From the IMG/VR virus record IMGVR_UViG_3300021440_000001: 64,000 bases of DNA. One strand, 5' to 3'. A program made the translations under genes and the position numbers. Origin of the DNA: a virus (Duplodnaviria; Heunggongvirae; Uroviricota; Caudoviricetes). Below are positions 2,072 to 22,400 of this stretch, piece by piece (within the stretch, counting starts at the first letter, position 1; the number at the start of each line of letters is the position of its first letter). Under the pieces are notes generated by a model. It was not told where the DNA came from. It worked only from the letters and a program-made list of their open reading frames with translations, and made no database searches.

Positions 2072-2274
2072 AGATTAAAACCAAGGAGCCTGAATTCAAC
2101 CCTATTGAGATTGTCATTGAGAGCCAGGAAGAACTTTATGAGATTGTCATTGAGAGCCAGGAAGAACTTTACGCCCTTTCTCGGATCGTACTCAAAGCCC
2201 ACGCTAACGTAGAAGTTGGAGATAGTGCTGTCAATGAAATGTGCGAAACGCTGGTTATCGGGCTAGGCCTATGA
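2068..2274 (+). CDS. hypothetical protein with internal in-frame 33-bp tandem duplication
   Basis: IVIESQEELYE repeated twice (nt 2110-2175). Confidence 0.5.
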   Translation: MKIKTKEPEFNPIEIVIESQEELYEIVIESQEELYALSRIVLKAHANVEVGDSAVNEMCETLVIGLGL

Positions 2275-3746: not shown

Positions 3747-4331
3747 ATGTTGGTCATTGAGGATTTCAAGAATGAGTGTGGCAAGTGGACGTATACATTA
3801 AATGTGAGCGGTAGGCATACTTTCACTGTCGGTGGAAAGTATTACAACAATATGACTAACAGGTGCAAAATCGGAGGGAGCTTTCAGAAGCTTAATCCGA
3901 CCTACATTGGCTGTACAACCACTTTTAAGTCTTGTCATGACTTCGTGGAGTGGGCCATAACACAAGTAGGTTACGGAGAAGGCACCTTAGATAAGGACAT
4001 ACTGTTGAAAGGAAATAAGGTCTACTGTCCAGAACTCTGCGTATTTGTGTCAGCGGAGGTCAATTCCACTCTGACAAAAAGTAATGCTATCAGAGGTGAG
4101 TGGCCTATCGGAGTTTGCTTGGACAAGAAGCGGAATAAGTTTTATGCGTATGTAAAAGTGAAGGGAAAACAAAAACACCTAGGCTCTTTTACTTCACCGC
4201 AGGCCGCTTTCGCGGCTTATAAGAAAGCTAAAGAAGACGAATGCAAGACTCTAGCTGAAGAGTACAAGTCACAAATCGACCATCGTGTATACCAAGCCCT
4301 GCTAGCGTACACTGTCGAAATTGACGACTGA
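3747..4331 (+). CDS. HNH-AP2 homing endonuclease, family A, copy 1
   Basis: FKNExGxWTY...GGxYYN...RCK...YIGCTTxFKSCHDFxEW (HNH_3-like) plus AP2 domain WPIGV...F.A...G..KHLG.F...EAA.AY; four paralogs in this window. Confidence 0.8.
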   Translation: MLVIEDFKNECGKWTYTLNVSGRHTFTVGGKYYNNMTNRCKIGGSFQKLNPTYIGCTTTFKSCHDFVEWAITQVGYGEGTLDKDILLKGNKVYCPELCVFVSAEVNSTLTKSNAIRGEWPIGVCLDKKRNKFYAYVKVKGKQKHLGSFTSPQAAFAAYKKAKEDECKTLAEEYKSQIDHRVYQALLAYTVEIDD

Positions 4332-4383
4332 AACTTTCAAAAAAAAAAAAATTTGATAACCAGTAAGCACTGGTCTTTGCAAT

Positions 4384-4420
4384 AAACCCGCCCAGGAATA
4401 TATCTGTGGCGGGTTTTTCG
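4384..4420 (+). terminator. rho-independent terminator
   Basis: AAACCCGCC-loop-GGCGGGTTTTTCG after an A-run. Confidence 0.7.
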
Positions 4421-4667
4421 TACTTGTGCGAGCGAGGTGTTTAACCGACGCCGCAGTGGGCTTATGCCACGCCATGAGACTGCAAAATATCCGCATACCT
4501 CATTCTAGCACTAGTTTCAATCCCATGTCAAGCGTAGGGTCTGACTGTTACTCTTCGTCGCGTATACACCACGGAATCGACCTAGAACAAAACCTAATGT
4601 CCCTTTGGTCTTGTTCTTACGGCCTATTTCGTGATAGGATATACCTATAGCAACGAAAAGGAATCTG

Positions 4668-5366
4668 ATGGACTGCATCACATACACCCGCGTATCGACC
4701 CGTGAACAAGGCGACAGTCGCAATGGACTAGAGGCGCAGACCGCCAGACTAGAACAGTTCGCATCCTCTAGCGGGGTGAATATCCTTGCTACCTATGAAG
4801 AGGTAGCTAGCGGGGCTAAGGGCGTGGACGGCAGGCCCGTCCTAGCGGCTGCACTGGCCCATGCTAAGCGGTCTAAGGCCGTCCTGCTGGTGGCGAAGCT
4901 AGACCGGCTAAGCCGCTCAGTGGAGTTCATAGCGGGCCTAATGAACCGGCAAGTACGCTTTGCCAGTGCAGAGGATGGCTTACACTGTGAGCCGTTTATG
5001 CTGCACCTAAAAGCGATGCTTGCCGAGCAAGAACGGCGAATGGTTAGTGAGCGCACTAAGGCGGCGCTGCAGGCTAAGAAAGCACGCGGTGAACCCCTCG
5101 GAGTACACACGCACAAGACACCCCTAGATACTAGCGCTAGGGCTGGCCTAGCGTCCGCTGCTGCTGTGGCTGCTGTGGCCGATCAGTTCGCGCTGCGGCT
5201 GGCTAGCGTGGTGTTACCACTGCGACGCACTGGGATGACGACAGCACAAATAGCTACAACCCTGAACACACAAGGTGTGTATACTGCGAGGGGCGGGCAG
5301 TGGCACGGGTCAACCGTGAACAATATCCTGAAAAGACTGACACAAATGGGGCAAATTGTAGGATAA
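4668..5366 (+). CDS. small serine recombinase (resolvase/invertase family) with C-terminal HTH
   Basis: N-terminal YTRVSTREQ (catalytic Ser), LVAKLDRLSRS, ...ERTKAAL motifs. Confidence 0.8.
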   Translation: MDCITYTRVSTREQGDSRNGLEAQTARLEQFASSSGVNILATYEEVASGAKGVDGRPVLAAALAHAKRSKAVLLVAKLDRLSRSVEFIAGLMNRQVRFASAEDGLHCEPFMLHLKAMLAEQERRMVSERTKAALQAKKARGEPLGVHTHKTPLDTSARAGLASAAAVAAVADQFALRLASVVLPLRRTGMTTAQIATTLNTQGVYTARGGQWHGSTVNNILKRLTQMGQIVG

Positions 5367-5402
5367 TTGCGGCTGGCTTGAAATCCGCCCGGCTAGCCTA
5401 TG

Positions 5403-5432
5403 GCCCGCCCTATAGGGCGGGCTGTTTGCTGT
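5403..5432 (+). terminator. hairpin GCCCGCCCTATAGGGCGGGC followed by T-rich tract
   Basis: perfect 8-bp stem just downstream of the recombinase gene. Confidence 0.5.
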
Positions 5433-5763
5433 GGCTCGCCTGTGGTGGCGGGCTTTCTGCTGCAATTTCAGGCTGTTTTGCTTAACTACGAAAACTGCAT
5501 TTTTAAGCAAACCCTGCTTTTTCTATTGCAGCCTATCCGCTGGTGATGCCCGATGGCTATCCTAGGGCATAGAATGGCCCTACAAGGGCCTGAAACCGCC
5601 TAAGCCACACTCGCCTCTTCGGGGCCGGGTGAAACCCGTCACGCCTGCGGCGTGCCTCGCTTCAGGCCATTGCATGGCGTTTTAATGCCTCGCGTGTTAC
5701 ATTCTAGATACTGCATTTTTGTGCATATAAGCTGCTGATTTTATTGTAGTTTTGCTCAACAGC

Positions 5764-6063
5764 ATGTATGGCGCCATAGGCGCCAGCAATCAAAGGCGTG
5801 CCACACGCGGGCGAGCGGGCGAACCCGTCCGCGTGTTTATTGTGCAATGCTTGCCCCTTCGGGGCTTGTTTGTGGTGCAAGGAATGGCGCCTAGGCGCCT
5901 TTTTATGGCGGACCAGTCCGCAAGCAAGAAAGGCCCCAAAAGGGGCCAAAACAGGCGCAAAAGCGCCTATAAATCCGGCTTTTTGGGGCGGCTTGTCCGC
6001 CACTCGCCCGGCAAAAAGAAAACCCGCCCAAGGCGGGCTGTATGGCGCCTAGGGCGCCTTTAA
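5764..6063. repeat. three copies of palindromic motif ATGGCGCC-TA(G)-GGCGCCTTT among dense GNRA/UUCG-loop hairpins
   Basis: copies at 5764-5787, 5881-5905 and 6039-6063; two further copies at 11443-11462 and 11645-11662. Confidence 0.6.
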
Positions 6064-6264
6064 TCAATAGCCTAGCACTGCGCGAGACTGTGCCAGAGTC
6101 TCGACACAATCGAACACAGAAACCGCCGTTCCATCCGGCAGGATGTCGATTGATTCAATCCGCACAAACCCGCCTTGAACCAAAACGGCACGCTGACCGG
6201 CAAGCCCGATATCGTTGGAGTTTACAAATTTTGCGATCCGGACTAGTTCTTGAGAATGTGACAT
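6064..6264 (-). CDS. hypothetical protein (66 aa)
   Basis: ORF at the distal end of the minus-strand cassette. Confidence 0.4.
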   Translation of the reverse strand: MSHSQELVRIAKFVNSNDIGLAGQRAVLVQGGFVRIESIDILPDGTAVSVFDCVETLAQSRAVLGY

Positions 6265-6277
6265 TTTTAGCTGCGGT

Positions 6278-6429
6278 TATTTGCCGGGGAAAAGCTTTTC
6301 CGCCATCTCTCCCATCTTTGCTCTAGCCCACTGCGCGCGCTTCCAGTCACCGGACTGGGCGTATTCTTGTTCAAGCTTTTCCAGCTTTGCCCAGATGGAC
6401 AGGACTTTAGATGCGTGATCGTGTGCCAT
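6278..6429 (-). CDS. hypothetical small protein (50 aa)
   Basis: ATG-initiated ORF MAHDHASKVL...; below ORF-track cutoff. Confidence 0.3.
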
Positions 6430-6531
6430 GTGTTTAACTCAGTTAGCTCAGTTGGTTAGCGAGTGAATAAATTCTGAAGCTTTTCAAAGCCCCTGTCGAG
6501 AGTCTTAGAAAAGCCCTTTCGGGCTTTGTGG

Positions 6532-6960
6532 TTATTCTTCGCTGAAGTATTCAAAGGCGCGGCAGACTTCCTCAAGCATGAACCATGCCAGCGCGTTGTA
6601 AATCACGGTTTCGCCCTTGCTCTTCGGGCCGTGCAGCGTGTCGATAACTTCGTCGTACGAAAAATCGCCCTTCAGGCAGTTGAAACCCTGCACCATTTCT
6701 GCCGTATTCATGCCGTATTCACGGGCCTGCAACTTGCAGAACGCCACTATTTCCGGGCGGTACTTTTTGGCAAATGCTTCAGTTTCGGTGTAGTAGATGA
6801 AGCCAGAGAAACCAGAGTCAGCGCCGTGGTTGCACACATCCTGTGCCGTTTCCTTGAACGCTTGCCAGCCGCCCAGATTGCGCACGATGGCGCGGATCAC
6901 GCGGCTGTCGATTTCGGTGGAAGCGATGAAGGCGCGCAGGGTCTTGATGGTCTTGGTCAT
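6532..6960 (-). CDS. hypothetical early protein (142 aa)
   Basis: ATG preceded by GAAAGA SD and a TTGACA/TAGAAT promoter. Confidence 0.6.
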   Translation of the reverse strand: MTKTIKTLRAFIASTEIDSRVIRAIVRNLGGWQAFKETAQDVCNHGADSGFSGFIYYTETEAFAKKYRPEIVAFCKLQAREYGMNTAEMVQGFNCLKGDFSYDEVIDTLHGPKSKGETVIYNALAWFMLEEVCRAFEYFSEE

Positions 6961-6997
6961 TTTGTTCTTTCGGGGGTGTTTGGGAGTCGATGAACGT

Positions 6998-7024
6998 ATT
7001 CTAGGGCTTGTTTTTGTTTGTCAA
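6998..7024 (-). promoter_or_regulatory. sigma70-like promoter (TTGACA-N15-TAGAAT) for gene 6532..6960
   Basis: reverse complement of 7019-7024 is TTGACA; -10 TAGAAT. Confidence 0.5.
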
Positions 7025-7045
7025 TCCCCTTTTTACTGTAGGGCT

Positions 7046-7357
7046 TTAGATTTCGCGGATCAGGTTTTTCTCTACCATATCCGCCCAGCAAGCAACAATT
7101 AACCGATGTCCGATAAAAACAACAGTTGTTGCGTATGCGTCGCCTGTGTTTGCATAGTATACATGATCGCCGGAAGGTTTGTAAATACCTAAATATTCAA
7201 TTCCAAATGTTTGCAGAATTCCGTCGATTTTTTCACGGGCGGGGCCACGCTTCAGGTTTTCTTCCTTCCACGCTTTGCGGATGGCGCGGGCGTCAGCGCG
7301 CGTCACATCCTTGATTGTTTCCAGCTTTTCAACACTTGCGGCGGTGCGAATGTTCAT
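7046..7357 (-). CDS. hypothetical early protein (103 aa; ORF-track start 7387 is a GTG upstream of the promoter -10)
   Basis: ATG at 7357 lies downstream of promoter 7388-7416. Confidence 0.5.
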   Translation of the reverse strand: MNIRTAASVEKLETIKDVTRADARAIRKAWKEENLKRGPAREKIDGILQTFGIEYLGIYKPSGDHVYYANTGDAYATTVVFIGHRLIVACWADMVEKNLIREI

Positions 7358-7387
7358 TTCTGTTCCCGGTTTGTTTACTGTGTTCAC

Positions 7388-7416
7388 AGTGTAGGGGCCT
7401 GTTCTGGTCTTGTCAA
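7388..7416 (-). promoter_or_regulatory. sigma70-like promoter TTGACA-N17-TACACT
   Basis: read on the minus strand. Confidence 0.55.
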
Positions 7417-7435
7417 GCCCCTACAGCTTGCAGGG

Positions 7436-7744
7436 TTATTTGTAGTCGCGGATTCGCTTGTCTCGTTCGTTTTCTTCGTCCGTCACAGCCTGCCCATGAA
7501 TTCCGATAACCACAGGCGCCACCTTATAGCCAGCTTCCACAATCTCGCCATTGTGCATTGTGAAATGCCAGCCTTTGCCCTTGTGATTTATCCACATTTC
7601 ACGCCATGCGCCAGCGTATCGGCCGGGCTGTTCATCGTTCCATTCTTTATCTGTCACGATGTCGCCATATCGGCGGATTTCCGCGTAAACGTCGCGGAAA
7701 TCTCCCATTTCGTAAGCTTTTTGCAGTTGCTTGGCGGTTTTCAT
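7436..7744 (-). CDS. hypothetical early protein (102 aa; first ATG of ORF lies in the promoter -10/leader)
   Basis: second ATG (MKTAKQLQ...) follows conserved leader GCGAAGCATCAAAACC. Confidence 0.5.
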   Translation of the reverse strand: MKTAKQLQKAYEMGDFRDVYAEIRRYGDIVTDKEWNDEQPGRYAGAWREMWINHKGKGWHFTMHNGEIVEAGYKVAPVVIGIHGQAVTDEENERDKRIRDYK

Positions 7745-7775
7745 TTCGTGCCTGTCTTTGGTTTTGATGCTTCGC

Positions 7776-7803
7776 ATTCTGCCATAAAATGCGAGACAGT
7801 CAA
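7776..7803 (-). promoter_or_regulatory. sigma70-like promoter TTGACT-N16-CAGAAT
   Basis: minus strand; the motif block CTTGTCAAGCCCCT...TGCATGG recurs at 7390 and 9530. Confidence 0.5.
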
Positions 7804-7987
7804 GCCCTTACAGCTAGCATGGTCAAAACCTATTAAAACGCCCTAGAACGGCCTGCAATGCTTCGCCTGTGTGGTTGCCTTACCGTGCCAGCGTTCGACG
7901 CCTGTGGCGCATTCCAGCGCGTTCCTGCGGCATCCTTTCGACTCACAAAAGCAAAACCCGCACTAAGCGGGCTTTGTTGCTGGCGGG

Positions 7988-8119
7988 TCAGACTGCTTCC
8001 CTCTTGGTGTTCGTTCGTTCCCACTTGCGGCGCTTTTGCAAGCGTGCGCGCTGTTCTTCGCTCTTCTGTTCCTGCTGGCGGGTCTTGAGGGTCTTTGCGT
8101 AATGTGCGTTATTTTGCAT
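7988..8119 (-). CDS. K/R-rich small protein (43 aa)
   Basis: ATG ORF followed on the minus strand by hairpin AAAGCCCGCTTAGTGCGGGTTTTGCTTTT (plus 7945-7975). Confidence 0.3.
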   Translation of the reverse strand: MQNNAHYAKTLKTRQQEQKSEEQRARLQKRRKWERTNTKREAV

Positions 8120-8203
8120 TTTGGTATTCCTTCTATTTGTCGCGGGTTATCCGCAGGGGTTTGGTTAGGCGGGGTTATTAGAAATAGTCTTTGAAAAGCC
8201 CCT

Positions 8204-8222
8204 GCGGGCTTGTGGTTATTCT
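8204..8222 (-). terminator. terminator-like hairpin AAGCCCCTGCGGGCTT
   Basis: downstream of gene 8366..8719; short U tract only. Confidence 0.4.
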
Positions 8223-8365
8223 GGGTTGTTTGCTCTCATCCAGTCCGTGCAGTTTGCACGGCTTAAGCTTCGGAATTGAACAATCCCGGCGCTGCTGCGC
8301 ACTTCCCAAAATGCGCCGTTCTTTTTCAGGGTGTACATGATTTTATTTCCAGTAGTCAAGTGTGG

Positions 8366-8719
8366 TTATTCGATTTCGCTTGCAATTTCAGCTTCGATTA
8401 CTCGCTTGTAAGTGTCGCCATAAGGCGAGCCATCGGGGCCAAAATCAATTCCGCCTAAGTTTGAAACGTGCTCGCCGGCTTCATTATACATCGTGCAAAG
8501 CCACGTTTCATGATCCATATCAGTAGACCAGTCTGCGGCCGTCACATCCGGGTCAATCTGCCATTCAAACGCATAACCGCCTTGCCGGGCTTTTTCTTCA
8601 GCCTGTGCCAGTTGCACGGCGCAGCGTGCGCGGCCTTGCTCTTCCGTTTCAGCCTGCGGATTGTAGCTGTAGCCCGCGTGAGCATAGAAAAACTTTTGAT
8701 CGGCGTTCAGGTTTTGCAT
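8366..8719 (-). CDS. highly acidic protein (117 aa, about 22% D/E), candidate DNA-mimic anti-restriction protein
   Basis: composition only; located in the early cassette with its own promoter. Confidence 0.5.
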   Translation of the reverse strand: MQNLNADQKFFYAHAGYSYNPQAETEEQGRARCAVQLAQAEEKARQGGYAFEWQIDPDVTAADWSTDMDHETWLCTMYNEAGEHVSNLGGIDFGPDGSPYGDTYKRVIEAEIASEIE

Positions 8720-8745
8720 TTTGTGCTTTCCGTTGACATGAGGAA

Positions 8746-8773
8746 ATTCTAAGCTTTTCTAAAGCCCTGTCAA
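8746..8773 (-). promoter_or_regulatory. sigma70-like promoter TTGACA-N16-TAGAAT
   Basis: minus strand, directly after hairpin 8784-8799. Confidence 0.55.
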
Positions 8774-8783
8774 GAGCCTTAGA

Positions 8784-8799
8784 AAGCCCTTCCGGGCTT
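8784..8799 (-). terminator. terminator-like hairpin AAGCCCTTCCGGGCTT
   Basis: UUCC-loop stem-loop between genes. Confidence 0.4.
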
Positions 8800-8805
8800 G
8801 TGGTT

Positions 8806-9078
8806 TTAAAACATCGTGAAAGTGTCCGGCTGTTTTCCGTCACGCGCTTGAGCGTATGACACGCGGCGCGATGCGCCGGCAGCTTTCAAGATTTCATTGA
8901 TGTGGCTTGCCGTTGTTGTGGAGTAGAAACCACAGAACGAGAATTCGATTTGTCCGGTTTCCGTGTGGCGGGCGATGGTGCTGCCGTGCAGCTTATATGC
9001 CGTGCCGTCAGTCTTTGCATTGTGGCATGCGCCGGGCTTGTGGGCGAGGAACGCCCGGGCGAGTTCTGTCTTGTTCAT
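8806..9078 (-). CDS. hypothetical early protein (90 aa)
   Basis: ATG ORF with promoter 9117-9145. Confidence 0.55.
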   Translation of the reverse strand: MNKTELARAFLAHKPGACHNAKTDGTAYKLHGSTIARHTETGQIEFSFCGFYSTTTASHINEILKAAGASRRVSYAQARDGKQPDTFTMF

Positions 9079-9116
9079 GGATTGCTTTCGTTAGCGGGGT
9101 TGTGATTCAGTGCCTG

Positions 9117-9145
9117 AATTTTGAGGCTTTCAAAAAACCCTGTCA
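9117..9145 (-). promoter_or_regulatory. sigma70-like promoter TTGACA-N17-CAAAAT
   Basis: minus strand, after hairpin 9159-9174. Confidence 0.5.
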
Positions 9146-9158
9146 AGGGCTTTTTTGA

Positions 9159-9174
9159 AAACCCCTTTCGGGGT
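9159..9174 (-). terminator. terminator-like hairpin AACCCCTTTCGGGGTT
   Basis: GAAA-loop hairpin followed by TTTCAAAAAAG on the minus strand. Confidence 0.4.
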
Positions 9175-9180
9175 TGTGGT

Positions 9181-9471
9181 TTATGCGTAGTACTTGCCGA
9201 CGATCACGGATTCTGCGTAAGCATCCACAAACTTGACAACCACGCTAGAAAAATAAGAATACGATGCGTACCCGTGCCAGCCTTTCAGATCGCCGGCTTC
9301 GTCTTGAACTCGCATGAATTCTGCGAGGTCATATACGCTTTCACGATAGCGGAAAAATACGGCGCTGTTCAGTTCTTCAGGACTGTAGTGGTCGAATTCT
9401 GCACGCTCACGCTTTGTAAGGTCGAATCCGTTAACAGTAAATCGCGGGACATTGTTCGTGACAATTTTCAT
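9181..9471 (-). CDS. hypothetical early protein (96 aa; ORF-track start 9585 lies upstream of the promoter)
   Basis: ATG at 9471 after conserved leader; promoter 9511-9539. Confidence 0.5.
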   Translation of the reverse strand: MKIVTNNVPRFTVNGFDLTKRERAEFDHYSPEELNSAVFFRYRESVYDLAEFMRVQDEAGDLKGWHGYASYSYFSSVVVKFVDAYAESVIVGKYYA

Positions 9472-9510
9472 AACTGGCTTTCGTTTGCGTTTCAGGTTTT
9501 GATGCTTCGC

Positions 9511-9539
9511 ATTGTGCAGGGGCTTTTTGATCTTGTCAA
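9511..9539 (-). promoter_or_regulatory. sigma70-like promoter TTGACA-N17-CACAAT
   Basis: minus strand. Confidence 0.55.
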
Positions 9540-9638
9540 GCCCCTGCTGTTTGCATGGTTGTTCGTGGTCAAACGCGATGAACATTACTTGACATGCGCG
9601 TTTGATTTATAGTTGTAACAATTCGATTTTCTGTTGAC

Positions 9639-9668
9639 TTCCTGCGGCGCAGGGGTCAGAATACGCTC
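9639..9668 (+). promoter_or_regulatory. plus-strand sigma70-like promoter TTGACT-N17-CAGAAT pointing into the iteron array
   Basis: divergent from the cassette promoters. Confidence 0.4.
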
Positions 9669-9753
9669 ATTCTGAAATCGACCGAAGGGCATGCCACGCC
9701 CGAAACATTTATATGCAGAAAATGAAAGTCAGCAAACACTAACGTAAGAGGAA

Positions 9754-9892
9754 GCTTATATACTGAAACGCCTATATTCTAAGTAGCTTATATAAGTGTT
9801 CGCTTATATATTGAATGGCTTATATAAGCCGCCGCTTATATAAGAATCCGCTTATATAAGCCAGCGGTTATATTCGCCAGGGCTTATATACG
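9754..9892. repeat. array of 9 copies of the 10-bp palindrome (G)CTTATATAAG with exact 16-bp periodicity
   Basis: copies start at 9754, 9770 (degenerate), 9786, 9802, 9818, 9834, 9850, 9866, 9882. Confidence 0.85.
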
Positions 9893-9900
9893 AGGTGCTG

Positions 9901-9956
9901 CCCTGGGGAGGGAGGGAGGTTCCATTAATAGGGAAAACTGCATTTTTATTTTCCCC
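9901..9956. repeat. G-tract CCCTGGGGAGGGAGGGAGG followed by hairpin GGGAAAACTGCATTTTTATTTTCCCC
   Basis: four G-runs; the motif GAAAACTGCATTTTTA also occurs at 5490 and 5705. Confidence 0.5.
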
Positions 9957-10226
9957 AGAAAACTTCGGCCAGAATTTCAAACGGTAGCCGAGACTGAATC
10001 ACTGTAGAATTCCACTTCAGAGTGAGGCCCGCCTGTGCGCGGGCTTATTGTATTTGCGAGTTTGTTTAAGAACAGCCAATGTTCTTGCGCGCCTGAAAGT
10101 TTCATGGCAACTTCCGCGCTATATAGGAGAAGTTGCCTCAAATTTTTCCTCGGCTGTGGCTTTCTGAGTAGTTCTGCGCAACAGTATGAAGCCAAGTCGC
10201 CATGCAACTCGGCCGTGCCTCAATCG

Positions 10227-10697
10227 TCAGACAACAGCACGAAACTCTGTGTCAGAGTAGCTTACGCTCTTCAGGAACTTACCTTTCGGAGCGTCTGGCT
10301 GATCGCACGAACTCTTCAGAACCATCGTCGGAAACTGACCTTCCGTGTATGTTTCGGTAACGCCGCGTAGCCAGTGGAACGCACGAGTATTTTCGAGGTC
10401 TTCCGGGCTCTTGATGAAGCGAGTCATAACGCCGTCAACGACATCCTTCATATCGTTGTCGCCATCGATGCCCATTAAGTGTTGTGCGCCCATGGCGAAC
10501 ACCTGAATATCACACAATGCGTCTCGCGTCTTAATCTTGCTCTTTTCTTCAAGAGCTTCCAAAAGTTCGTTGTACTCGTCCAAGATGTTCTTGCACTGAG
10601 ACTTCAGTCGATCCCAGTCAACAGCGTCGTAGTTTCCACGACTATTGCCGAACGCTGTGTTCATGGCGGAGACAGACTGGAAGGAGGTATTTGACAT
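10227..10697 (-). CDS. hypothetical early protein (156 aa; start MSNTSFQ with AAAGGA SD)
   Basis: first ATG of the track ORF (10748) lacks an SD; the second has one. Confidence 0.55.
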   Translation of the reverse strand: MSNTSFQSVSAMNTAFGNSRGNYDAVDWDRLKSQCKNILDEYNELLEALEEKSKIKTRDALCDIQVFAMGAQHLMGIDGDNDMKDVVDGVMTRFIKSPEDLENTRAFHWLRGVTETYTEGQFPTMVLKSSCDQPDAPKGKFLKSVSYSDTEFRAVV

Positions 10698-10949
10698 TAG
10701 TGTCCTTTCGTTTTTACAGTTGGGGTAAATCATACCCAGTTTACCCAAGGTTTAAGTATACCTAACTAAGAGTCGCAGGAGGACATGTAGCGGAGATGCC
10801 ACAAATCCGGGATCGACCTTGGAAATCCTCGAAGTGTTTCCAAAAAGTCTGAAGTGTAGGCAAAATGCTGCTAGTTATCACATAACTTAGGAGTTTGTTC
10901 GTAAAACACCCATAGCTCTCCTAATGTTAGAGCAGCTTTGGAACCTCAA

Positions 10950-11102
10950 TTAGAGTTCATTGCCGGCCATGTACATACCAAGTTCGTCGGCACTATCTGC
11001 GCCGTCAATAGGCAGAGTCAACATCCAACCTGTGAAGAACTTCGCATTGAACACCTCCTCTACCAAATCCGGCGCTCCATTAACAATGCGTTGCAAATCC
11101 AT
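10950..11102 (-). CDS. hypothetical small protein (about 50 aa)
   Basis: minus-strand ATG with GAAAGGAAT SD; preferred over overlapping plus ORF 10938..11264. Confidence 0.35.
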   Translation of the reverse strand: MDLQRIVNGAPDLVEEVFNAKFFTGWMLTLPIDGADSADELGMYMAGNEL

Positions 11103-11260
11103 GAGATTCCTTTCAAATGTTTGACCACTACTGTCTTCATGCCAGCAATGGTTGCTTTACCGATCAATGTTGTCTTGATAACAGATTGTGCTTCACTTTG
11201 GCATCTTCGTCAAGAGATTTTTGACACCAATGTAGGTGTGCCTAAAAAGCAACACAACTA

Positions 11261-11289
11261 TTGACAAAGTTCTCGGACTGTGCTATATA
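11261..11289 (+). promoter_or_regulatory. sigma70-like promoter TTGACA-N17-TATATA firing into the (TA)n tract
   Basis: consensus -35 and near-consensus -10. Confidence 0.5.
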
Positions 11290-11330
11290 TATATATATAT
11301 TATATATTATATATATTATATATCTTGCCT
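11281..11330. repeat. (TA)n / TATATAT low-complexity tract (about 50 bp)
   Basis: direct inspection. Confidence 0.9.
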
Positions 11331-11661
11331 AAGTATTGTCTAAGTAGCTAAAGCTATTCGTCTACTACGTAGACTCATGCTTTAGCTCATGGCCGTACCG
11401 GCGAGCGAGTGGCGGACAAGCCGCACGCCGGAAACCTCAGTCGTTGGCGCCTAGGGCGCTGGTTAGTGCGAATACTGGAACAACGCTTTGGGCTGCTTGC
11501 ACCGTCGGTGCCAACAACCCTAGAACGCTCTAAAAGAGCCATAGAGCGCTTTAAACAGCCCAAGCTATGCCATGGTAGCCATGTGGTACCAACCAGGGCT
11601 TGTAGCCCGTTTAAACGGCTCTGAATACTGCCGTTCTTGTGCAAATGGGCGCCCTAGGCGC

Positions 11662-11690
11662 TTGACAGCCCGGCGTGAGTGCGGTAGACT
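11662..11690 (+). promoter_or_regulatory. sigma70-like promoter TTGACA-N17-TAGACT for the ligase operon, abutted by a GGCGCC-CTA-GGCGC palindrome
   Basis: consensus -35; RBS AGAGGAGAAAG and the ligase ATG follow. Confidence 0.6.
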
Positions 11691-11722
11691 CTCAGTCTTA
11701 GCAACTAAGAGGAGAAAGATAC

Positions 11723-12703
11723 ATGACAGCTTCCCAGCTCAAGCCTGAAATACGCCCCCAGCTAGCCTGTGACTTTGAACAGGACAAGCTCAAGTTTCCC
11801 GTAATCGTGTCCCCGAAGATCGACGGTGTACGTGGCATCAATCTTGACGGGAACTTGACTGGACGCTCTCTGAAGGCTTTCAAAAATGGCTTCGTGACGC
11901 GCCGATTTTCAGGTCCGCAATTCATGGGCTTTGATGGAGAACTGGCGCTTGGTAACTGGACATCTGCGACCCTATGCAGCGACACAACGGGCTTCGTGAC
12001 TCGCAAGTCTCCAAAGCCCGGCAAACCGACGGAAAGCGAAGAGCTTGTCTGGTATATCTTCGACTACTTGGCCGACGAGGTGATTGGCCTGCCATATGCC
12101 GAACGCATTGCAGCGGCGCAGGCCAAGGTAGGGCAAATGCAAGAGTTCCCAGCCAGCATCTCGGTTGTACCATACAAACTGGCACACTCCACTGAGGAGC
12201 TTCTTGCTTTTGAGCAATTGTGCCTGGACGACGGCTTTGAGGGCGTAATCATCCGCGACCCCAATGGCAAGCACAAATCCGGGCGTGCCACTGTGAAGGG
12301 CGGGAGCTACCTGCGAATCAAGCGGTTCATCGACTTTGAGTTCACTATCGACGGTTTTGATGAGGCTCAGGAGAATTTAAACGAGGCGAAGGTTAATGAG
12401 CTTGGATACACCGAGCGCAGCAGCCACAAAGAAAACAAAATTGGCAAGGGTATGGTGGGCTGCATTCACGGCACGCTACTCGAAGATGTAGTGTTCGAGG
12501 GCAAAGTTCTCAACGGCATGGGGAAAGGCACACCTGTTGACGTATCTCCAGGGGCTTTGACACATGGCGAGCGCATTGCAATTTTTAACGACCCGACAGG
12601 ATTTATCGGCGCAATCGGGAAGGGAAAGATGTTCCCGAAGGGCCATAAAGACAAGCCAAGGTTCCCGCAATTCCAAACTGTTCGGGCCAAGGAGGATATG
12701 TGA
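11723..12703 (+). CDS. ATP-dependent DNA ligase (T7 gp1.3-like)
   Basis: adenylation motif KIDGVRG (KxDG), ...GFEGVIIRD..., size 326 aa. Confidence 0.85.
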   Translation: MTASQLKPEIRPQLACDFEQDKLKFPVIVSPKIDGVRGINLDGNLTGRSLKAFKNGFVTRRFSGPQFMGFDGELALGNWTSATLCSDTTGFVTRKSPKPGKPTESEELVWYIFDYLADEVIGLPYAERIAAAQAKVGQMQEFPASISVVPYKLAHSTEELLAFEQLCLDDGFEGVIIRDPNGKHKSGRATVKGGSYLRIKRFIDFEFTIDGFDEAQENLNEAKVNELGYTERSSHKENKIGKGMVGCIHGTLLEDVVFEGKVLNGMGKGTPVDVSPGALTHGERIAIFNDPTGFIGAIGKGKMFPKGHKDKPRFPQFQTVRAKEDM

Positions 12704-13293
12704 TTACAGTGATTGTAGATGACTTTACCCGAGACGGTTTGTGGGTGAAGCAGATGTGGACAGAAGGAGAGAAGCACCTTACTCGGGCATATCTTCGTTG
12801 GAGGGCGATGAACAACCGCTGCAAACCTGGCGGGTGTACGCAGCGCAGGTCGGTAACATATATTGGTTGCTACATGTCTCCAGAATTTCAAGACTTTCAA
12901 CTATTTACGGGGTGGTGTCAGCGCCAACCCGGCTACGATAAGGTGGGGTGGCAACTCGACAAGGATATTCTTATAAAAGGGAACAAGTGCTACAGTCCTG
13001 ATACGTGCGTGTTTGTCCCGCGCGAATTGAATGCGCTGACACTGAAGCACGACAAACTGAGGGGTGAGCTTCCGATAGGAGTCAGCCGTAAAGGGTTGAA
13101 ATTTCAGGCGCAGTGCAATGTGGAGGGTAGGCGAAAGTGCATCGGGATATTCAACACAGCGGCAGCGGCATTTCTTGCGTACAAGAGCCTCAAAGAGGCT
13201 ACAGTACGGTGTATGGCAGAGAAATACAAGAGCGAGATTGACCCGAGGGCCTACGAGGCGTTGATGAGCTTTACAGTGGGCCTTGACGACTAG
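12700..13293 (+). CDS. HNH-AP2 homing endonuclease, family A, copy 2
   Basis: paralog of 3747..4331 (CKPGG...YIGCY..FQDF..W, AP2 tail); start overlaps ligase stop (ATGTGA). Confidence 0.8.
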   Translation: MITVIVDDFTRDGLWVKQMWTEGEKHLTRAYLRWRAMNNRCKPGGCTQRRSVTYIGCYMSPEFQDFQLFTGWCQRQPGYDKVGWQLDKDILIKGNKCYSPDTCVFVPRELNALTLKHDKLRGELPIGVSRKGLKFQAQCNVEGRRKCIGIFNTAAAAFLAYKSLKEATVRCMAEKYKSEIDPRAYEALMSFTVGLDD

Positions 13294-13384
13294 CCGACCT
13301 TCCTCTGCATCCGTGCTGAAGAGGATATGTCCGAGTAAATCTGTCAACTACATACCTCGACAGAGGTTGCTCACCACTAACAAC

Positions 13385-15052: not shown

Positions 15053-15850
15053 ATGAAGAAGTTTTTCGCTGCTACCGCAATCGCTGCCTTGGCAATCATG
15101 TCCGCTGGATGCACTCGAATCGAAACCGGCGAAGTCGGTGTGCGTATTGGCTATGACAAGCAAATCAAGCAGGGCGAGCTACTGCCAGGCAGCTTCAACC
15201 AAACCTTGGTGGGATCGATCATCACGTTCCCAATCAAGGACGTGTCGGCTGTCATCGAGAACATGACCCCGATTGCAAAAGACAACAGCACGATGAAGGA
15301 CTTTGACCTGTCTGTCATCTACAGCATCAATCAAAGTCAGGTCGCGGAACTGTACAGCTCGAAGAGCCGTAGCTTTCACGCTGAAGCGAACGGCGACATC
15401 TACTTGATGTACAATTACGTCACCCAGACGGCCCGAAACGCCGCGTACAAGTCTGCGCGAGAGTACGAGGCCCTGACGATGAACGACAATCGCGAGGCGA
15501 TGGAGACGCAAATCAAGGCGATCATCAACGCAACGCTGCAAGCCGAAGGTCTTGGCAACTCGATCACGATTTCTCGTGTTCAAATCCGTGGCGTTGTCCC
15601 GGCAGATTCCATCGTTGCAAGCGCAAACGAGCTTGTGCGCGCCAAGAACGGCCTGCTGCAAAAGGAAGTCGAAGTTCGCACGGCAGAGGCCGAGAGCCGG
15701 CGAATCGCTGCCCTGAATGCCAATACTGGCGCGATCCAATACATGCAGGCAGCGGCACAGATGAAGATTGCGGAAGGTATCGCTGCTGGCAAGGTCCAAG
15801 CAATCGTTGTGCCCTACGACTTCCGAGGTATTGTTGACACCCGTAAATGA
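15053..15850 (+). CDS. lipoprotein, possible SPFH/band-7-like domain
   Basis: lipobox LAIMSAG|C after AAGGAGAAAG RBS; the SPFH resemblance is weak. Confidence 0.5.
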   Translation: MKKFFAATAIAALAIMSAGCTRIETGEVGVRIGYDKQIKQGELLPGSFNQTLVGSIITFPIKDVSAVIENMTPIAKDNSTMKDFDLSVIYSINQSQVAELYSSKSRSFHAEANGDIYLMYNYVTQTARNAAYKSAREYEALTMNDNREAMETQIKAIINATLQAEGLGNSITISRVQIRGVVPADSIVASANELVRAKNGLLQKEVEVRTAEAESRRIAALNANTGAIQYMQAAAQMKIAEGIAAGKVQAIVVPYDFRGIVDTRK

Positions 15851-16398
15851 TTGAGATAGACTACGAAAAAGCTAGTGGGAAATTTTACTACGACGAGACG
15901 AGTACCTCTTGCCTTCGCCATATGACAGGCCAACCGGCTGGTTATCTGTGTAAGACAAGTGGGTACTATAAAGTCACTATTGCAGGCCAAGACGTTATGG
16001 CTCATAGGGTTGTCTTCTGCCTTAATAATAGAGGCATACCAAACAACTTAACTGTAGATCATATAAATGGCGTTAAAAGTGACAACAAAATAGAAAATTT
16101 GCGTTGCGTCCCTCAAGTAGTAAATACTCACAATACGGGTGTAAGATGTGATAACACATCCGGAGTAAAAGGCGTCCACAATAAAGTCAGGGAAATCCCA
16201 AGCGGAAAGACATTCAGCTATTGGGTAGCGACGTGGATGGAAGGCGGAAAGGTCAAAGAGAAGGCGTTTTCTATGCTAAGACACGGAGATAGTGCTTTTG
16301 ATCTTACCGTTAAGTTCAGACTCGCCAAGCTAGATGCCTTAAACTCGACTGGTGCTGAATACACTGCAAGACACAAGGGCATCATCAACACCAAGTAA
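15847..16398 (+). CDS. HNH-AP2 homing endonuclease, family B, copy 1
   Basis: FYYDETS.SCLRH..., VDHINGVKSDN (HNH), AP2-like C-terminus; paralogs at 39946, 40839, 42518. Confidence 0.75.
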   Translation: MIEIDYEKASGKFYYDETSTSCLRHMTGQPAGYLCKTSGYYKVTIAGQDVMAHRVVFCLNNRGIPNNLTVDHINGVKSDNKIENLRCVPQVVNTHNTGVRCDNTSGVKGVHNKVREIPSGKTFSYWVATWMEGGKVKEKAFSMLRHGDSAFDLTVKFRLAKLDALNSTGAEYTARHKGIINTK

Positions 16399-18515: not shown

Positions 18516-19098
18516 ATGAATATAGAAGACTTCAAGACTGAAAGTGGAGAGTGGGCGGGGACGGATACGTTAGGCGGAAAGACCGTATTCACTATTGGCG
18601 GACGGTACTACCATAATATGCGACAACGCTGCAAGGCGGGTGGGGCTAATCAGGGACGAAGGCCGACATACACTAGCTGCACTACAACTTTCAAGTCTTG
18701 CCATGAGTTTATTGAGTGGGGCAGGAAGCAAGTTGGGTACGGGACTGGGGGAGTTGGACAAGGACATTTTGCTGAAGGGCAATAAGGTCTATTGCCCAGA
18801 GTTGTGTGTATTTGTCCCTAGACAGGTAAACCTGCTACTTGTAAGCTGCAACAACAGCAGAGGAGCCTACCCGCTGGGCGTCTCTTACAACAAGAAGGCT
18901 GCTAAATTTGTTGCTCAACTGCGTTGCAACGGACGGGTGGAGTACCTTGGGCTGTTTCCCTCGCCAGAAGCCGCATTCGCAGCCTACAAAGTTGCAAAGG
19001 AAGCTGAAATCAAGCGTGTTGTCAATTTACACATTGATAGTCTTGATTCGCGTGTGTCTACGGCTCTGATGGGCTATAATGTTGATATCAACGACTGA
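18516..19098 (+). pseudogene. HNH-AP2 homing endonuclease family A, copy 3, interrupted by a +1 frameshift in a G5 run (about 18748)
   Basis: N-terminal half in ORF 18516..18785, C-terminal half in ORF 18595..19098; removing one G from ACTGGGGGAG restores ...QVGYGTGELDKDILLKGNKVYCPELCVFV... Confidence 0.7.
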
Positions 19099-22247: not shown

Positions 22248-22400
22248 GGAAGCGCCATAACTGCATCAAGGGCGTTGTGCTCAGCTTGGCACAAAAGCTG
22301 TGGAACGAGCGGACCAAGACCACTAGCCCTGTGCTTGCAACGCACGACACGGATGCACCGATTGTACGGTGTACTTTCTACGTTCAAGAAAAGGAGAAGG

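What the first reader, a model, noticed from the sequence alone, without database searches (positions are those of the whole stretch)
4668..11700. Serine recombinase next to a self-contained minus-strand early-gene cassette, bracketed by shared motifs
A resolvase/invertase-family serine recombinase (4668-5366) is unexpected in a genome that otherwise has a lytic T7-like replication module. Immediately downstream lies a 5.5-kb block of about 10 small minus-strand genes, each with its own promoter. The block is bounded on the left by a hairpin-dense spacer with three ATGGCGCC-TA(G)-GGCGCC palindromes (5764-6063). It is bounded on the right by two more copies of the same palindrome (11443-11462, 11645-11662). 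A 16-nt near-palindrome GAAAACTGCATTTTTA occurs at 5490 and 9936 in the same orientation, and ACTGCATTTTTG occurs at 5709. This architecture is compatible with a recombinase-addressed segment (invertible or excisable early-gene module) or with a recombinase that resolves replicon multimers at a nearby site. No described phage family is obviously matched.
Basis: partly seen in the sequence, partly recalled or inferred. Interest (0 to 1): 0.75.

Follow-up and report, generated by a model that had tools for sequence, protein, structure and literature searches.

The report
Phage recombinase beside ordinary early-gene block
An intact small serine recombinase sits next to this uncultured phage's early-gene region, but comparison with related phages shows the block is an ordinary, fast-evolving early region that the recombinase does not flip or cut out.

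Summary
The sequence features are real. There is a catalytically intact 232-aa serine recombinase (4668-5366). A hairpin-dense spacer, S1 (5367-6063), follows it. Next come 12 small minus-strand genes (6064-11102), most with their own sigma70-like promoter. A divergent promoter region, S2 (11103-11722), separates them from the ligase gene.

The recombinase-addressed-cassette reading fails on comparison. Eight related uncultured phages (recombinase 53-71% identical) all show recombinase, then a 355-910 nt spacer, then a minus-strand block of small genes. That block can exceed 9 kb. So this layout is the clade's standard early region, built from repeated terminator-promoter cassettes like the PeSLs of T4-type phages.

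The nearest relative ("phage B") has window 7758-13351 inverted. The endpoints are not in S1 or S2 and share only 7 nt (CAACTAC). Each orientation is fixed across independent samples. S2 lies inside that inversion, so any S1/S2 motif pair reverses its relative orientation between the two phages. Such pairs therefore cannot be conserved recombination sites. The second GAAAACTGCATTTTTA copy and the 20-nt inverted repeat are specific to this phage.

What remains is a clade-conserved recombinase of unknown role. Beside it lies a conserved TGCA-centred element (5478-5515), the best candidate for a single res- or lox-like site.

The parts
4332..4667 (.). Noncoding region upstream of the recombinase gene. 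It holds a conserved minus-strand sigma70-like promoter (4531-4502) and a bidirectional terminator hairpin (about 4390-4425).
   Evidence: Promoter scan, 11 of 12 matches. The block GCAAAATATCnGCAnnCCTCATT and the TGTCAA motif are conserved in W (the window phage), phage B and L012.
4668..5366 (+). Small serine recombinase, 232 aa. It has a catalytic domain, an E-helix and a C-terminal helix-turn-helix-like piece that matches the start of the large-serine-recombinase 'Recombinase' domain.
   Evidence: Pfam PF00239 at 1.7e-27 and PF07508 at 3.2e-06, covering profile positions 16-58 of 102. PHROG 125 'DNA invertase' at 8.5e-34. The motifs YTRVSTREQ, KLDRLSRS and ExER are invariant across 36 homologues.
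5367..6063 (.). S1, a hairpin-dense convergent spacer. It contains the recombinase terminator (5403-5422) and several plus- and minus-strand terminator-like hairpins.
   Evidence: Sequence and terminator scan. No Rfam family matches. W against phage B is 60-72% identical in the left half and 86-98% over 5732-6231.
5478..5515 (+). It reads as two 9-bp direct repeats (AACTGCnnA) followed by TTAAGCAAACC, or as an imperfect dyad GCnnAAAC-TGCA-TTTnAAGC. It is the candidate recombinase site.
   Evidence: It lies at the same relative position (about 110-150 nt after the stop codon) in W, B, L185, L184, L183 and L012, and partly in L013. The surrounding spacer is otherwise not alignable between subgroups.
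5770..6058 (.). Three GGCGCC-N(2-3)-GGCGCC palindromes at 5770-5784, 5886-5899 and 6044-6058.
   Evidence: Three exact copies against 0.02 expected. The copy at 5886-5899 followed by TTTTTAT scores as an intrinsic terminator.
5988..6007 (+). Left arm of a 20-nt perfect inverted repeat (GCGGCTTGTCCGCCACTCGC). It is itself a GC hairpin.
   Evidence: The partner arm is at 11405-11424. In phage B the sequence occurs only in S1.
6064..11102 (-). Early-gene block of 12 small ORFs. They include a DUF7222 protein (6532-6960) and a MazG-like pyrophosphatase (10227-10748). The block is organised as stop codon / terminator hairpin / TTGACA promoter / next gene cassettes.
   Evidence: ORFs and gene calls. 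Pfam and PHROGs. Repeat families D2, D3 and D4. Promoter and terminator enrichment. Upstream regions.
7758..13351 (.). 5.6-kb segment inverted relative to the closest relative, phage B. It carries six minus-strand genes with homologues in B, the B-absent 9586-10226 insert, S2, the ligase gene and an HNH gene.
   Evidence: blastn and tblastn of the window against L026. Junction sequences. The B arrangement is seen in 4 samples. The window arrangement is seen in 12 contigs.
9586..10226 (+). Noncoding insert absent from phage B. It holds a plus-strand promoter (9634-9662), nine GCTTATATA sites at 16-bp spacing (9754-9890), the second copy of the 16-mer (9933-9948) and a plus-strand terminator (10025-10046).
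11103..11722 (.). S2, the divergent promoter region. It contains a minus-strand promoter (11342-11315), a (TA)n-like tract (11285-11325), the right arm of the inverted repeat (11405-11424), degenerate palindromes (11446-11460 and 11648-11662) and the ligase promoter TTGACA-17-TAGACT (11662-11690). The last palindrome abuts the -35 hexamer of that promoter.
   Evidence: The same palindrome-plus-promoter arrangement is conserved in phage B.
11723..13351 (+). ATP-dependent DNA ligase (11723-12703), an HNH-AP2 homing endonuclease inserted at its 3' end (12700-13293), a duplicated ligase 3' remnant (13294-13338) and the right inversion breakpoint with CAACTAC microhomology (13345-13351).
   Evidence: Pfam and PHROGs. 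Comparison with B.

Best explanation
This region is the junction between the left arm and the host-polymerase early region of an uncultured tailed phage of about 81 kb. It is not a recombinase-controlled cassette.

The minus-strand block is a hyperplastic early region. Small genes are separated by repeated terminator-hairpin / sigma70-promoter cassettes, comparable to the PeSLs of T4-type phages. The block diverges from the ligase and replication genes at S2 and converges on the recombinase gene at S1.

The GGCGCC palindromes and GC hairpins shared by S1 and S2 are regulatory modules. Some are terminators. One abuts the -35 of the ligase promoter and is a probable operator or activator site.

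Part of the block, together with S2 and the ligase gene (7758-13351), differs from the nearest relative by a single fixed inversion. Its breakpoints share only 7 nt, so it looks like illegitimate recombination and not site-specific recombination.

The recombinase is an intact, clade-conserved gene that appears to form its own transcription unit. It most likely acts on a single site in the spacer just downstream of its gene, the conserved TGCA-centred element at 5478-5515. There it would recombine two copies of that site carried on replicating, concatemeric or terminally redundant phage DNA. This is a resolvase/res-like or Cre/lox-like resolution or circularisation role.

Shown: the anatomy, the synteny, the inversion and its breakpoints, and the non-conservation of the motif pairs.

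Inferred: the function of the palindromes and the role and site of the recombinase. My sub-confidence in the single-site resolution or circularisation role is about 0.3.
For: Synteny. The order recombinase (+), spacer of 355-910 nt, minus-strand small genes is found in W, B, L012, L013, L019, L183 and L184. L185 ends inside the spacer.

Cassettes. Repeat families D2, D3 and D4 in the window and D1-D4 in L012 combine a hairpin with TTGACA. Promoters and terminators are enriched 3-fold. The left end of W/B homology falls inside such a cassette, the 16-mer repeat at 7760/9495.

Inversion. Window 7758-13351 maps in reverse to L026rc 14424-9988, and both flanks are collinear. The breakpoints share only CAACTAC/GTAGTTG, and their flanks are dissimilar. 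The B orientation occurs in 4 samples. The W orientation occurs in 12 contigs.

Motif pairs are not conserved. The outgroup S1 and S2 share at most 10 nt. The 20-mer occurs once in B. ACTGCATTTTT occurs once in B, and the 9586-10226 insert is absent there.

The recombinase is intact and under selection. The catalytic residues are invariant in 36 homologues.

A conserved element lies next to the gene in 6 members. No second rec-proximal-like site of 20 nt or more with at most 3 mismatches exists elsewhere in the 64 kb.

The palindrome abutting the -35 of the ligase promoter is conserved in B.
Against: No read-level data were available, so low-frequency inversion or excision cannot be excluded.

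The conserved element at 5478-5515 is only an imperfect dyad. It can equally be read as two direct 9-mers, so it could be a promoter or a binding site for another protein.

The near-identity of 5732-6231 between W and B extends into the neighbouring gene. It may therefore reflect a recent mosaic exchange and not functional constraint.

A T7-like replisome that makes linear concatemers has no obvious need for a multimer resolvase.

Seventeen kb of the genome lie outside the window and were not searched for a partner site.

The polarity of the inversion is ambiguous. The outgroup has the window-like ligase orientation. The window also carries what could be a 12-codon remnant of a gene that is intact in B.
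Confidence: 0.55

Rival explanations
1. Programmed inversion. The recombinase flips the minus-strand block between inverted sites in S1 and S2, using the 20-nt repeat at 5988-6007/11405-11424 or the palindrome-plus-flank pair at 6029-6058/11648-11677. This would work like Gin on the Mu G segment.
For: Real inverted repeats flank about 5.4 kb next to a serine recombinase gene. One Logan contig pair breaks inside the left arm, at 5979-6005. The region has undergone an inversion during evolution.
Against: The second arm is absent from phage B, whose recombinase and S1 are conserved. The outgroup shows no S1/S2 similarity. S2 is inverted in B relative to S1, so the pairs would become direct repeats that delete the ligase gene. 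The real inversion has different endpoints. All 12 contigs across S2 and all contigs across S1 show one orientation. The contig break implies variant bases at 5975 and 6009, which does not fit a junction at the repeat. The repeat is a GC hairpin that lacks the A/T-rich core flanks of hix, gix or res sites (from knowledge).
Confidence: 0.04
2. Programmed excision. The two identical, directly repeated 16-bp cores at 5490 and 9933 are recombinase sites. Recombination between them releases a 4.4-kb circle carrying 10 early genes and the iteron-like array, and leaves a deleted phage genome.
For: The 16/16 identity is in direct orientation, and both copies lie in noncoding DNA. The first copy lies in the clade-conserved element beside the recombinase gene. 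Two contigs from different assemblers end at 5504. PeSL mini-circles provide a precedent for circles excised from early regions (PMC2839356).
Against: The second copy and the whole 9586-10226 insert are missing in phage B. An exact 16-mer pair is expected about 1.4 times by chance, and the window has 18 such events. The contigs ending at 5504 carry a cluster of B-like SNPs at 5445-5488, which points to a strain-mosaic boundary. No contig shows the deletion junction.
Confidence: 0.05
3. The recombinase is an integrase and S1 contains attP. On this reading the phage is temperate or a phage-plasmid.
For: The gene sits at an arm junction beside a long conserved noncoding region, as int-attP pairs do. 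At least 571 family members lie in bacterial chromosomes, some next to prophage-type genes such as a P27-like small terminase subunit, a ParB-methylase and a tyrosine integrase.
Against: None of the 80 best bacterial loci shares any other gene with this phage. No repressor, partition or other lysogeny gene was seen in the 64 kb. The protein lacks the zinc-ribbon and coiled-coil parts that known serine integrases need, since it matches only the first 43 profile positions of PF07508. S1 contains no tRNA or other host-like fragment.
Confidence: 0.07
4. The recombinase does not act on phage DNA in cis to this region. It might target the host chromosome or another part of the phage genome (17 kb unseen), act mainly as a DNA-binding regulator, or be a tolerated selfish gene.
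For: No convincing paired site exists in the 64 kb. Homologues are scattered through unrelated virulent phages and have no known role. Bacterial contexts are heterogeneous.
Against: Strict synteny holds, and divergence matches that of neighbouring core genes in all 8 clade members. This argues against a roaming selfish gene. The catalytic residues are invariant, which argues against a purely regulatory role.
Confidence: 0.2

Closest known systems
Small serine recombinases of the resolvase/invertase family (Tn3 and gamma-delta resolvase; Gin, Hin and Cin invertases)
   Same: The catalytic domain carries the YxRVSTxxQ serine motif, the D-R-x-x-R motif and an E-helix. The protein is about 200-230 aa, and the gene lies beside a long noncoding region. 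The best solved-structure matches are Gin, a resolvase-family protein, TP901-1 integrase and gamma-delta/Tn3 resolvase, all through the catalytic domain.
   Different: No HTH_7-type C-terminal domain was detected. The C-terminus instead matches the start of the large-serine-recombinase 'Recombinase' domain. No NCBIfam equivalog reaches its cutoff; XisF and Mpi score about 44 bits against cutoffs of 375 and 272. No conserved pair of inverted sites or three-subsite res was found.
Large serine recombinases (phiC31, Bxb1, TP901-1 and A118 integrases)
   Same: The C-terminal region carries the TARGGxWxxSTV-type motif and matches PF07508. It also matches PHROG 95 'integrase' over residues 1-230.
   Different: The protein is only 232 aa and matches profile positions 16-58 of 102. 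It lacks the zinc-ribbon and coiled-coil domains (from knowledge of the family). No prophage form was found.
Invertible segments of phages Mu (G segment/Gin) and P1 (C segment/Cin)
   Same: A serine recombinase gene is adjacent to a multi-kb block on the opposite strand, with short inverted repeats at its two ends.
   Different: The repeats are not conserved in relatives. The block holds early genes, not alternative tail-fibre ends. Only one orientation is seen in every assembly. The inversion that did occur has other endpoints with 7-nt microhomology.
PeSL (promoter-early stem-loop) cassettes of T4-type phages (PMC2839356, PMC4122927)
   Same: Composite sigma70-like promoter plus stem-loop terminator motifs are repeated between small, poorly conserved early genes. 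Gene content differs between close relatives, with homology ending inside a cassette.
   Different: The phage lineage is different: a siphovirus- or myovirus-like phage with a T7-type primase-helicase, not a T4-like phage. Cassette function and mini-circles are untested here.
Cre/loxP of phage P1 and plasmid multimer-resolution systems (ParA/res of RK2, Tn3 res). This is a functional analogy only.
   Same: A site-specific recombinase with a single cognate site next to its gene could circularise terminally redundant DNA or resolve multimers. This is the role I infer here.
   Different: Cre is a tyrosine recombinase. P1 is a plasmid prophage. No plasmid maintenance genes were seen here, and the role is not demonstrated.

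Membership tests
Serine recombinase superfamily (Pfam PF00239 Resolvase) | Profile match above the curated threshold | tested here: met
   96.8 bits against a cutoff of 23.3, covering residues 4-142.
Serine recombinase superfamily (Pfam PF00239 Resolvase) | Catalytic serine in the YxRVSTxxQ motif, plus the conserved Arg/Asp cluster and E-helix acidic and basic residues | tested here: met
   Y6, R8, S10, Q14, D79, R80, R83, E120, E122 and R123 are present and invariant in 36 homologues.
Classical small resolvase/invertase (Tn3, gamma-delta, Gin, Hin) | C-terminal HTH_7-type DNA-binding domain | tested here: not met
   No HTH_7 match appears in the Pfam scan. The C-terminus (residues 188-230) matches PF07508 instead. 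PDB matches stop near residue 150-159.
DNA invertase system (Gin/gix, Hin/hix, Cin/cix) | Two conserved, inverted, dyad-symmetric crossover sites flanking a segment next to the gene | tested here: not met
   The only inverted pairs (5988-6007/11405-11424 and 6029-6058/11648-11677) are not conserved in phage B or the outgroup. Their relative orientation changes in B.
DNA invertase system (Gin/gix, Hin/hix, Cin/cix) | Both orientations of the segment coexist in a population | tested here: inconclusive
   Assemblies show a single orientation in 12 contigs. Raw reads were not available.
DNA invertase system (Gin/gix, Hin/hix, Cin/cix) | Fis-dependent enhancer | not testable with these tools
   This would need biochemical or genetic assays.
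Resolvase/res system (Tn3-like, or ParA of RK2) | A res site with a crossover subsite plus accessory subsites adjacent to the recombinase gene | tested here: inconclusive
   A conserved element lies at 5478-5515 in 6 clade members. L012 has three 46-48-bp tandem repeats at the homologous place. No clear three-subsite dyad architecture is visible in the window.
Large serine recombinase / phage serine integrase | Full recombinase domain plus zinc-ribbon and coiled-coil domains (about 450-700 aa) | tested here: not met
   The protein is 232 aa. PF07508 is matched only over profile positions 16-58 of 102. All family members listed are 219-265 aa.
Large serine recombinase / phage serine integrase | Integrated prophage form with attL and attR in host genomes | tested here: not met
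   The 80 best of at least 571 bacterial loci share no other gene with this phage.
PeSL-type regulatory cassettes (PMC2839356, PMC4122927) | Repeated composite motif combining a sigma70-like promoter with a stem-loop terminator between small early genes | tested here: met
   Families D2, D3 and D4 in the window and D1-D4 in L012. Upstream regions of the 12 genes. Enrichment against shuffles.
PeSL-type regulatory cassettes (PMC2839356, PMC4122927) | Cassettes mark the boundaries of indels and replacements between close relatives | tested here: met
   W/B homology ends at 7758-7782, inside a cassette leader that is repeated at 9495.
PeSL-type regulatory cassettes (PMC2839356, PMC4122927) | Demonstrated promoter and terminator activity, and mini-circle formation | not testable with these tools
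   This would need reporter assays or PCR on phage DNA.

The most novel reading that the evidence does not exclude
The recombinase recognises the conserved TGCA-centred element beside its gene. In this particular phage, an acquired second identical core 4.4 kb away in direct orientation would let it excise a circle (5506-9948). That circle would carry ten early genes and a 9 x 16-bp iteron-like array of a type that sits beside DnaA-box origins in other viral contigs. The result would be an excisable and possibly self-replicating early-gene mini-replicon inside a virulent-type phage.
Probability: 0.04. Interest if true: 0.75.

Novelty: new member of a known kind. Interest (0 to 1): 0.3.

Why it matters
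Small serine recombinases occur in many virulent-looking phages, and their role there is essentially unstudied. This locus shows that, in one uncultured clade, the gene is a syntenic, selectively maintained core gene with a conserved short DNA element beside it. That gives a concrete site to test. It also gives a clean example outside the T4-like phages of early regions built from terminator-promoter cassettes that turn over and even invert between close relatives. The specific claim that drew attention, a recombinase-flipped or excised early-gene module, does not hold. The finding is therefore mostly ordinary.

Tried and rejected
1. Near-identity DNA search of 4000-12000 against 50,697 phage records found no match. 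Only the primase-helicase links the phage, at 49% aa identity, to Otagovirus phages. The first 16 kb share nothing else with Bobbio or phiPsa374.

2. Contig ends as evidence of recombination junctions. Two contigs end at 5504 and one pair overlaps at 5979-6005. I rejected this. The 5504 contigs carry a B-like SNP cluster just before the end, which indicates a strain mosaic. The k-mer arithmetic for the Logan pair implies variant bases at 5975 and 6009, not a junction at the 20-nt repeat.

3. Metagenome scan for recombinase relatives gave only 4 distant loci. A viral-contig scan with the ligase gave one distant locus without a nearby recombinase.

4. A viral-contig scan for the 16-mer gave 54 hits. 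All were chance matches except the two known contigs. A scan for the conserved block pattern added 2 chance hits in coding DNA.

5. Rfam searches of S1, at the gathering threshold and at E<=1, gave nothing credible.

6. A search for partner sites of the recombinase-proximal noncoding DNA across the 64 kb (20-mers with at most 3 mismatches) gave only chance-level hits.

7. DnaA boxes are not enriched in the window: 11 found against 11.6 expected.

8. Neighbour clustering in 49 bacterial loci found no dominant conserved neighbour. The best family occurs in 8 loci.

9. I first read the 12-codon match at 13342-13380 as a gene fossil proving that the window arrangement is derived. I withdrew this. 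B's ORF may simply read into that sequence, and the outgroup has the window-like ligase orientation.

10. A literature search found no study of these recombinases in virulent phages.

Full report
WHAT THE WINDOW IS. The window is 64 kb of an uncultured phage genome of about 81 kb. It is identical to ENA contig ERZ27251996:k141_727048, and window position 1 equals L005 position 5333. It has no near-identical DNA among 50,697 deposited phage records. Its T7-type primase-helicase is 49% identical to those of Otagovirus phages (phiPsa374, Bobbio). Nothing else in the first 16 kb matches them. The window encodes a ligase, ThyX, a family-A DNA polymerase, RNR, NAMPT, one tRNA, a 1725-aa tape measure protein and many HNH-AP2 endonucleases. 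I call the window phage W.

CHECK OF THE OBSERVATION. The recombinase ORF 4668-5366 is real. Pfam Resolvase scores 96.8 bits against a 23.3 cutoff, and there is a short match to the start of PF07508 'Recombinase'. It also matches PHROG 125 'DNA invertase'. The motifs YTRVSTREQ, KLDRLSRS and ExER are present and invariant across 36 homologues, so the enzyme looks active.

Downstream lie a 697-nt noncoding spacer (S1, 5367-6063), twelve small minus-strand ORFs (6064-11102), a 620-nt divergent region (S2, 11103-11722) and then the plus-strand ligase gene. Sigma70-like promoters are enriched in 4400-12000: 20 against 5.9 +/- 2.4 in shuffles, mostly on the minus strand. Intrinsic-terminator-like hairpins are also enriched: 30 against 9.7 +/- 3.0. 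About 8 of the 12 genes have a TTGACA-17-nAnAAT match within 100 nt upstream.

The three GGCGCC-N(2-3)-GGCGCC palindromes are exact and unique to S1 (3 against 0.02 expected). The two S2 copies each carry one mismatch. The 16-mer GAAAACTGCATTTTTA is at 5490 and 9933, not 9936, and ACTGCATTTTT is also at 5710. An exact 16-mer pair is expected about 1.4 times by chance in a sequence like this. The window has 18 such events, several unexplained, so the pair is not remarkable on its own.

This is a 20-nt perfect inverted repeat at 5988-6007 and 11405-11424, together with a 30-nt 83% inverted pair at 6029-6058 and 11648-11677.

THE LAYOUT IS THE CLADE'S STANDARD ARCHITECTURE. The recombinase has more than 3000 homologues of 219-265 aa. 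Several sit on contigs of 77-92 kb. I examined eight relatives: phage B (L004, L025-L028; 67% identity), L185 (71%), L183 (63%), L012 (61%), L184 (59%), L013 (57%) and L019 (53%). In every one, the recombinase is the last gene of a plus-strand arm that carries PhoH, a ClpP-like protease, RNA ligase or RtcB, and YAcAr. A noncoding spacer of 355-910 nt follows, and then minus-strand small genes. The minus block is about 1.5 kb in B, 5 kb in W, more than 9 kb in L012 and L019, and about 11 kb in L013/L100. Its gene content is almost entirely different from one phage to the next.

Within the blocks, a composite motif recurs between genes. It runs stop codon, GC hairpin with a T-run, TTGACA, then a -10 hexamer. 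These are families D2, D3 and D4 in W and D1-D4 in L012. This matches the description of PeSL cassettes in the hyperplastic regions of T4-type phages, where recombination between cassettes shuffles small early genes (PMC2839356, PMC4122927). So the 'self-contained cassette' is the phage's host-polymerase early region.

THE DECISIVE COMPARISON: PHAGE B. The ligase of B (P0122, 74% identical) lies on contigs up to 77.6 kb in four samples. I aligned W to B with the recombinase on the plus strand (L026rc).
- W 4484-6266 is collinear with B 6690-8472.
- W 7758-13351 maps in reverse to B 14424-9988.
- W 13345 onward is collinear again with B 14654 onward.

In B, therefore, the ligase and an HNH gene are minus-strand genes next to S1. 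The homologues of W's 50-aa gene, its MazG-like gene, and w9181, w8366, w8216 and w7988 are plus-strand genes that run on into the replication module. S2, with its divergent promoters, is inside the inverted segment.

The breakpoints share only CAACTAC/GTAGTTG. The sequences on either side are unrelated and show no dyad symmetry. The left limit of homology falls inside a repeated cassette leader, the 16-mer shared by 7760 and 9495. The B orientation is the same in four samples. The W orientation is the same in 12 contigs from several projects (left side).

Polarity is uncertain. The outgroup L013/L100 has the recombinase and the ligase on the same strand, as in W. W also has a 12-codon stretch at 13342-13380 that matches the end of a gene intact in B. 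Either way, this is a one-off, lineage-fixed rearrangement with microhomology and not a programmed switch.

CONSEQUENCES FOR THE 'SHARED MOTIFS'. S1 is outside the inverted segment and S2 is inside it. Any S1/S2 motif pair that is inverted in W is therefore direct in B, as seen for the palindrome-plus-flank pair (family D5). Yet the recombinases are 67% identical and S1 is 89% identical. Sites that must be inverted for inversion, or direct for excision, cannot tolerate this. In B they would delete the ligase gene. In addition:
- the second arm of the 20-nt repeat is missing from B's S2;
- the outgroup's S1 and S2 share at most 10 nt;
- ACTGCATTTTT occurs once in B;
- the whole 640-nt insert 9586-10226, which holds the second 16-mer, is absent from B, where the MazG-like and w9181-like genes abut.

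A more mundane reading fits better. The hairpins are terminators at a convergent junction. The palindrome at 11648-11662 abuts the -35 hexamer of the ligase promoter TTGACA-17-TAGACT in both W and B. That is where an operator or class-II-type activator site would sit. This last point is an inference.

WHAT THE RECOMBINASE MIGHT DO. Its strict synteny, its level of divergence (comparable to neighbouring genes) and its invariant catalytic residues make it a maintained clade gene and not a stray mobile gene. By sequence it is equidistant from Gin, gamma-delta/Tn3 resolvases and the catalytic domains of serine integrases. No NCBIfam equivalog comes near its cutoff. Its C-terminus resembles the first helices of the large-serine-recombinase domain and not HTH_7.

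About 110-150 nt after the stop codon, six clade members share a block of about 35 bp in otherwise unalignable spacers. In W it reads TTAACTACGAAAACTGCATTTTTAAGCAAACCC. It can be read as two 9-bp direct repeats, or as an imperfect dyad around TGCA with A- and T-tracts on either side. No second similar site exists in the 64 kb apart from the W-specific copy.

A single conserved site next to the gene is what resolvase/res and Cre/lox systems look like (from knowledge). My preferred but unproven mechanism is recombination between copies of this site on replicating, concatemeric or terminally redundant DNA.

I also tested the integrase alternative. At least 571 family members lie in bacterial chromosomes, mostly Alphaproteobacteria and sometimes near prophage-type genes. 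None of the 80 best loci shares any other gene with W, and the contexts are heterogeneous.

THE CONSERVED PATCH. W and B are 86-98% identical over 5732-6231, against 52-80% in the recombinase gene and 60-72% in the left half of S1. The patch runs into the adjacent gene (w6064, 85% aa identity). It is at least as likely to be a recent mosaic exchange as a constrained element.

VERDICT. But the block is an ordinary, rapidly evolving early region. The bracketing motifs are regulatory repeats whose arrangement is not conserved. No evidence ties the recombinase to the block. The remaining open item is a conserved small serine recombinase of unknown role with a candidate site beside it. That is modestly interesting and experimentally tractable.

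Noticed in passing
window 9754-9890 (within the noncoding insert 9586-10226): Nine GCTTATATA sites lie at an exact 16-bp period, against 0.18 expected occurrences of the 9-mer in the window. A plus-strand promoter (9634-9662) and a plus-strand terminator (10025-10046) bracket them. The same 16-bp-spaced array occurs in 13 unrelated IMG/VR contigs. In at least five of these (L030/L035, L031, L033, L041, L042) it directly follows a cluster of perfect DnaA boxes, so it looks like an origin-type iteron array or a host-factor binding array. The window has no DnaA-box cluster and shares no protein with those contigs. The insert is absent from the closest relative.
   Followed up: partly
window 38649-38860 (+): A group I intron (Rfam RF00028, 81.8 bits) splits the ribonucleotide reductase large-subunit gene into exon ORFs 38065-38661 and 38942-39898. 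An HNH-AP2 gene follows at 39946-40572. The RNR N-terminal domain is on a separate ORF (36562-37380), so the gene may be interrupted more than once.
   Followed up: partly
window 3747-4331, 12700-13293, 15847-16398, 18595-19098, 39946-40572, 44310-44888: There are at least six paralogous HNH-AP2 homing-endonuclease genes. The one at 12700-13293 sits on the 3' end of the ligase gene, and a duplicated remnant of the ligase 3' end lies at 13294-13338. Phage B lacks this insertion but has a different HNH gene upstream of its ligase. The family-A DNA polymerase also appears split (22275-24032 and 24814-25614).
   Followed up: partly
window 4385-4531 (-): A strong sigma70-like promoter (TTGACA-18-TAGAAT with TG, 4531-4502) points away from the recombinase gene toward a bidirectional terminator hairpin at about 4390-4425. 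The promoter and the first transcribed bases are conserved in W, B and L012. This could be a small RNA of about 100 nt divergent from the recombinase gene.
   Followed up: no
L012 10846-10990 and 11154-11600: In the relative L012, the spacer after the recombinase gene holds three 46-48-bp tandem repeats, each with TGTTCnnCTATAGAACA. They start where W has the conserved element. The same spacer has a perfect 23-nt inverted repeat (11154-11176 and 11578-11600) enclosing 401 bp. This small, invertase-style arrangement was not seen in W.
   Followed up: no
window 5445-5504: Two contigs from different projects and assemblers (ERZ27251998 and JGI 3300022748) both end at 5504. Both carry five SNPs at 5445-5488 that match the phage-B allele. 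This indicates a co-occurring mosaic strain whose sequence beyond 5504 was not assembled.
   Followed up: partly
window 11285-11325: An irregular (TA)n / TATATATTA low-complexity tract lies between the divergent promoters of S2. Phage B has a shorter version at the homologous place.
   Followed up: no
window 2106-2171: A 33-nt tandem duplication inside ORF 2068-2274 gives the protein repeat EELYEIVIESQ twice. Two Logan contigs break at 2142 there.
   Followed up: no
window 5900-5916 versus L004 11240-11256: The hairpin GCGGACCAGTCCGC in W reads GCGGACTGGTCCGC in B. This is the exact reverse complement of the loop, so it is either a small hairpin-loop flip or a double substitution within otherwise identical sequence.
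   Followed up: no
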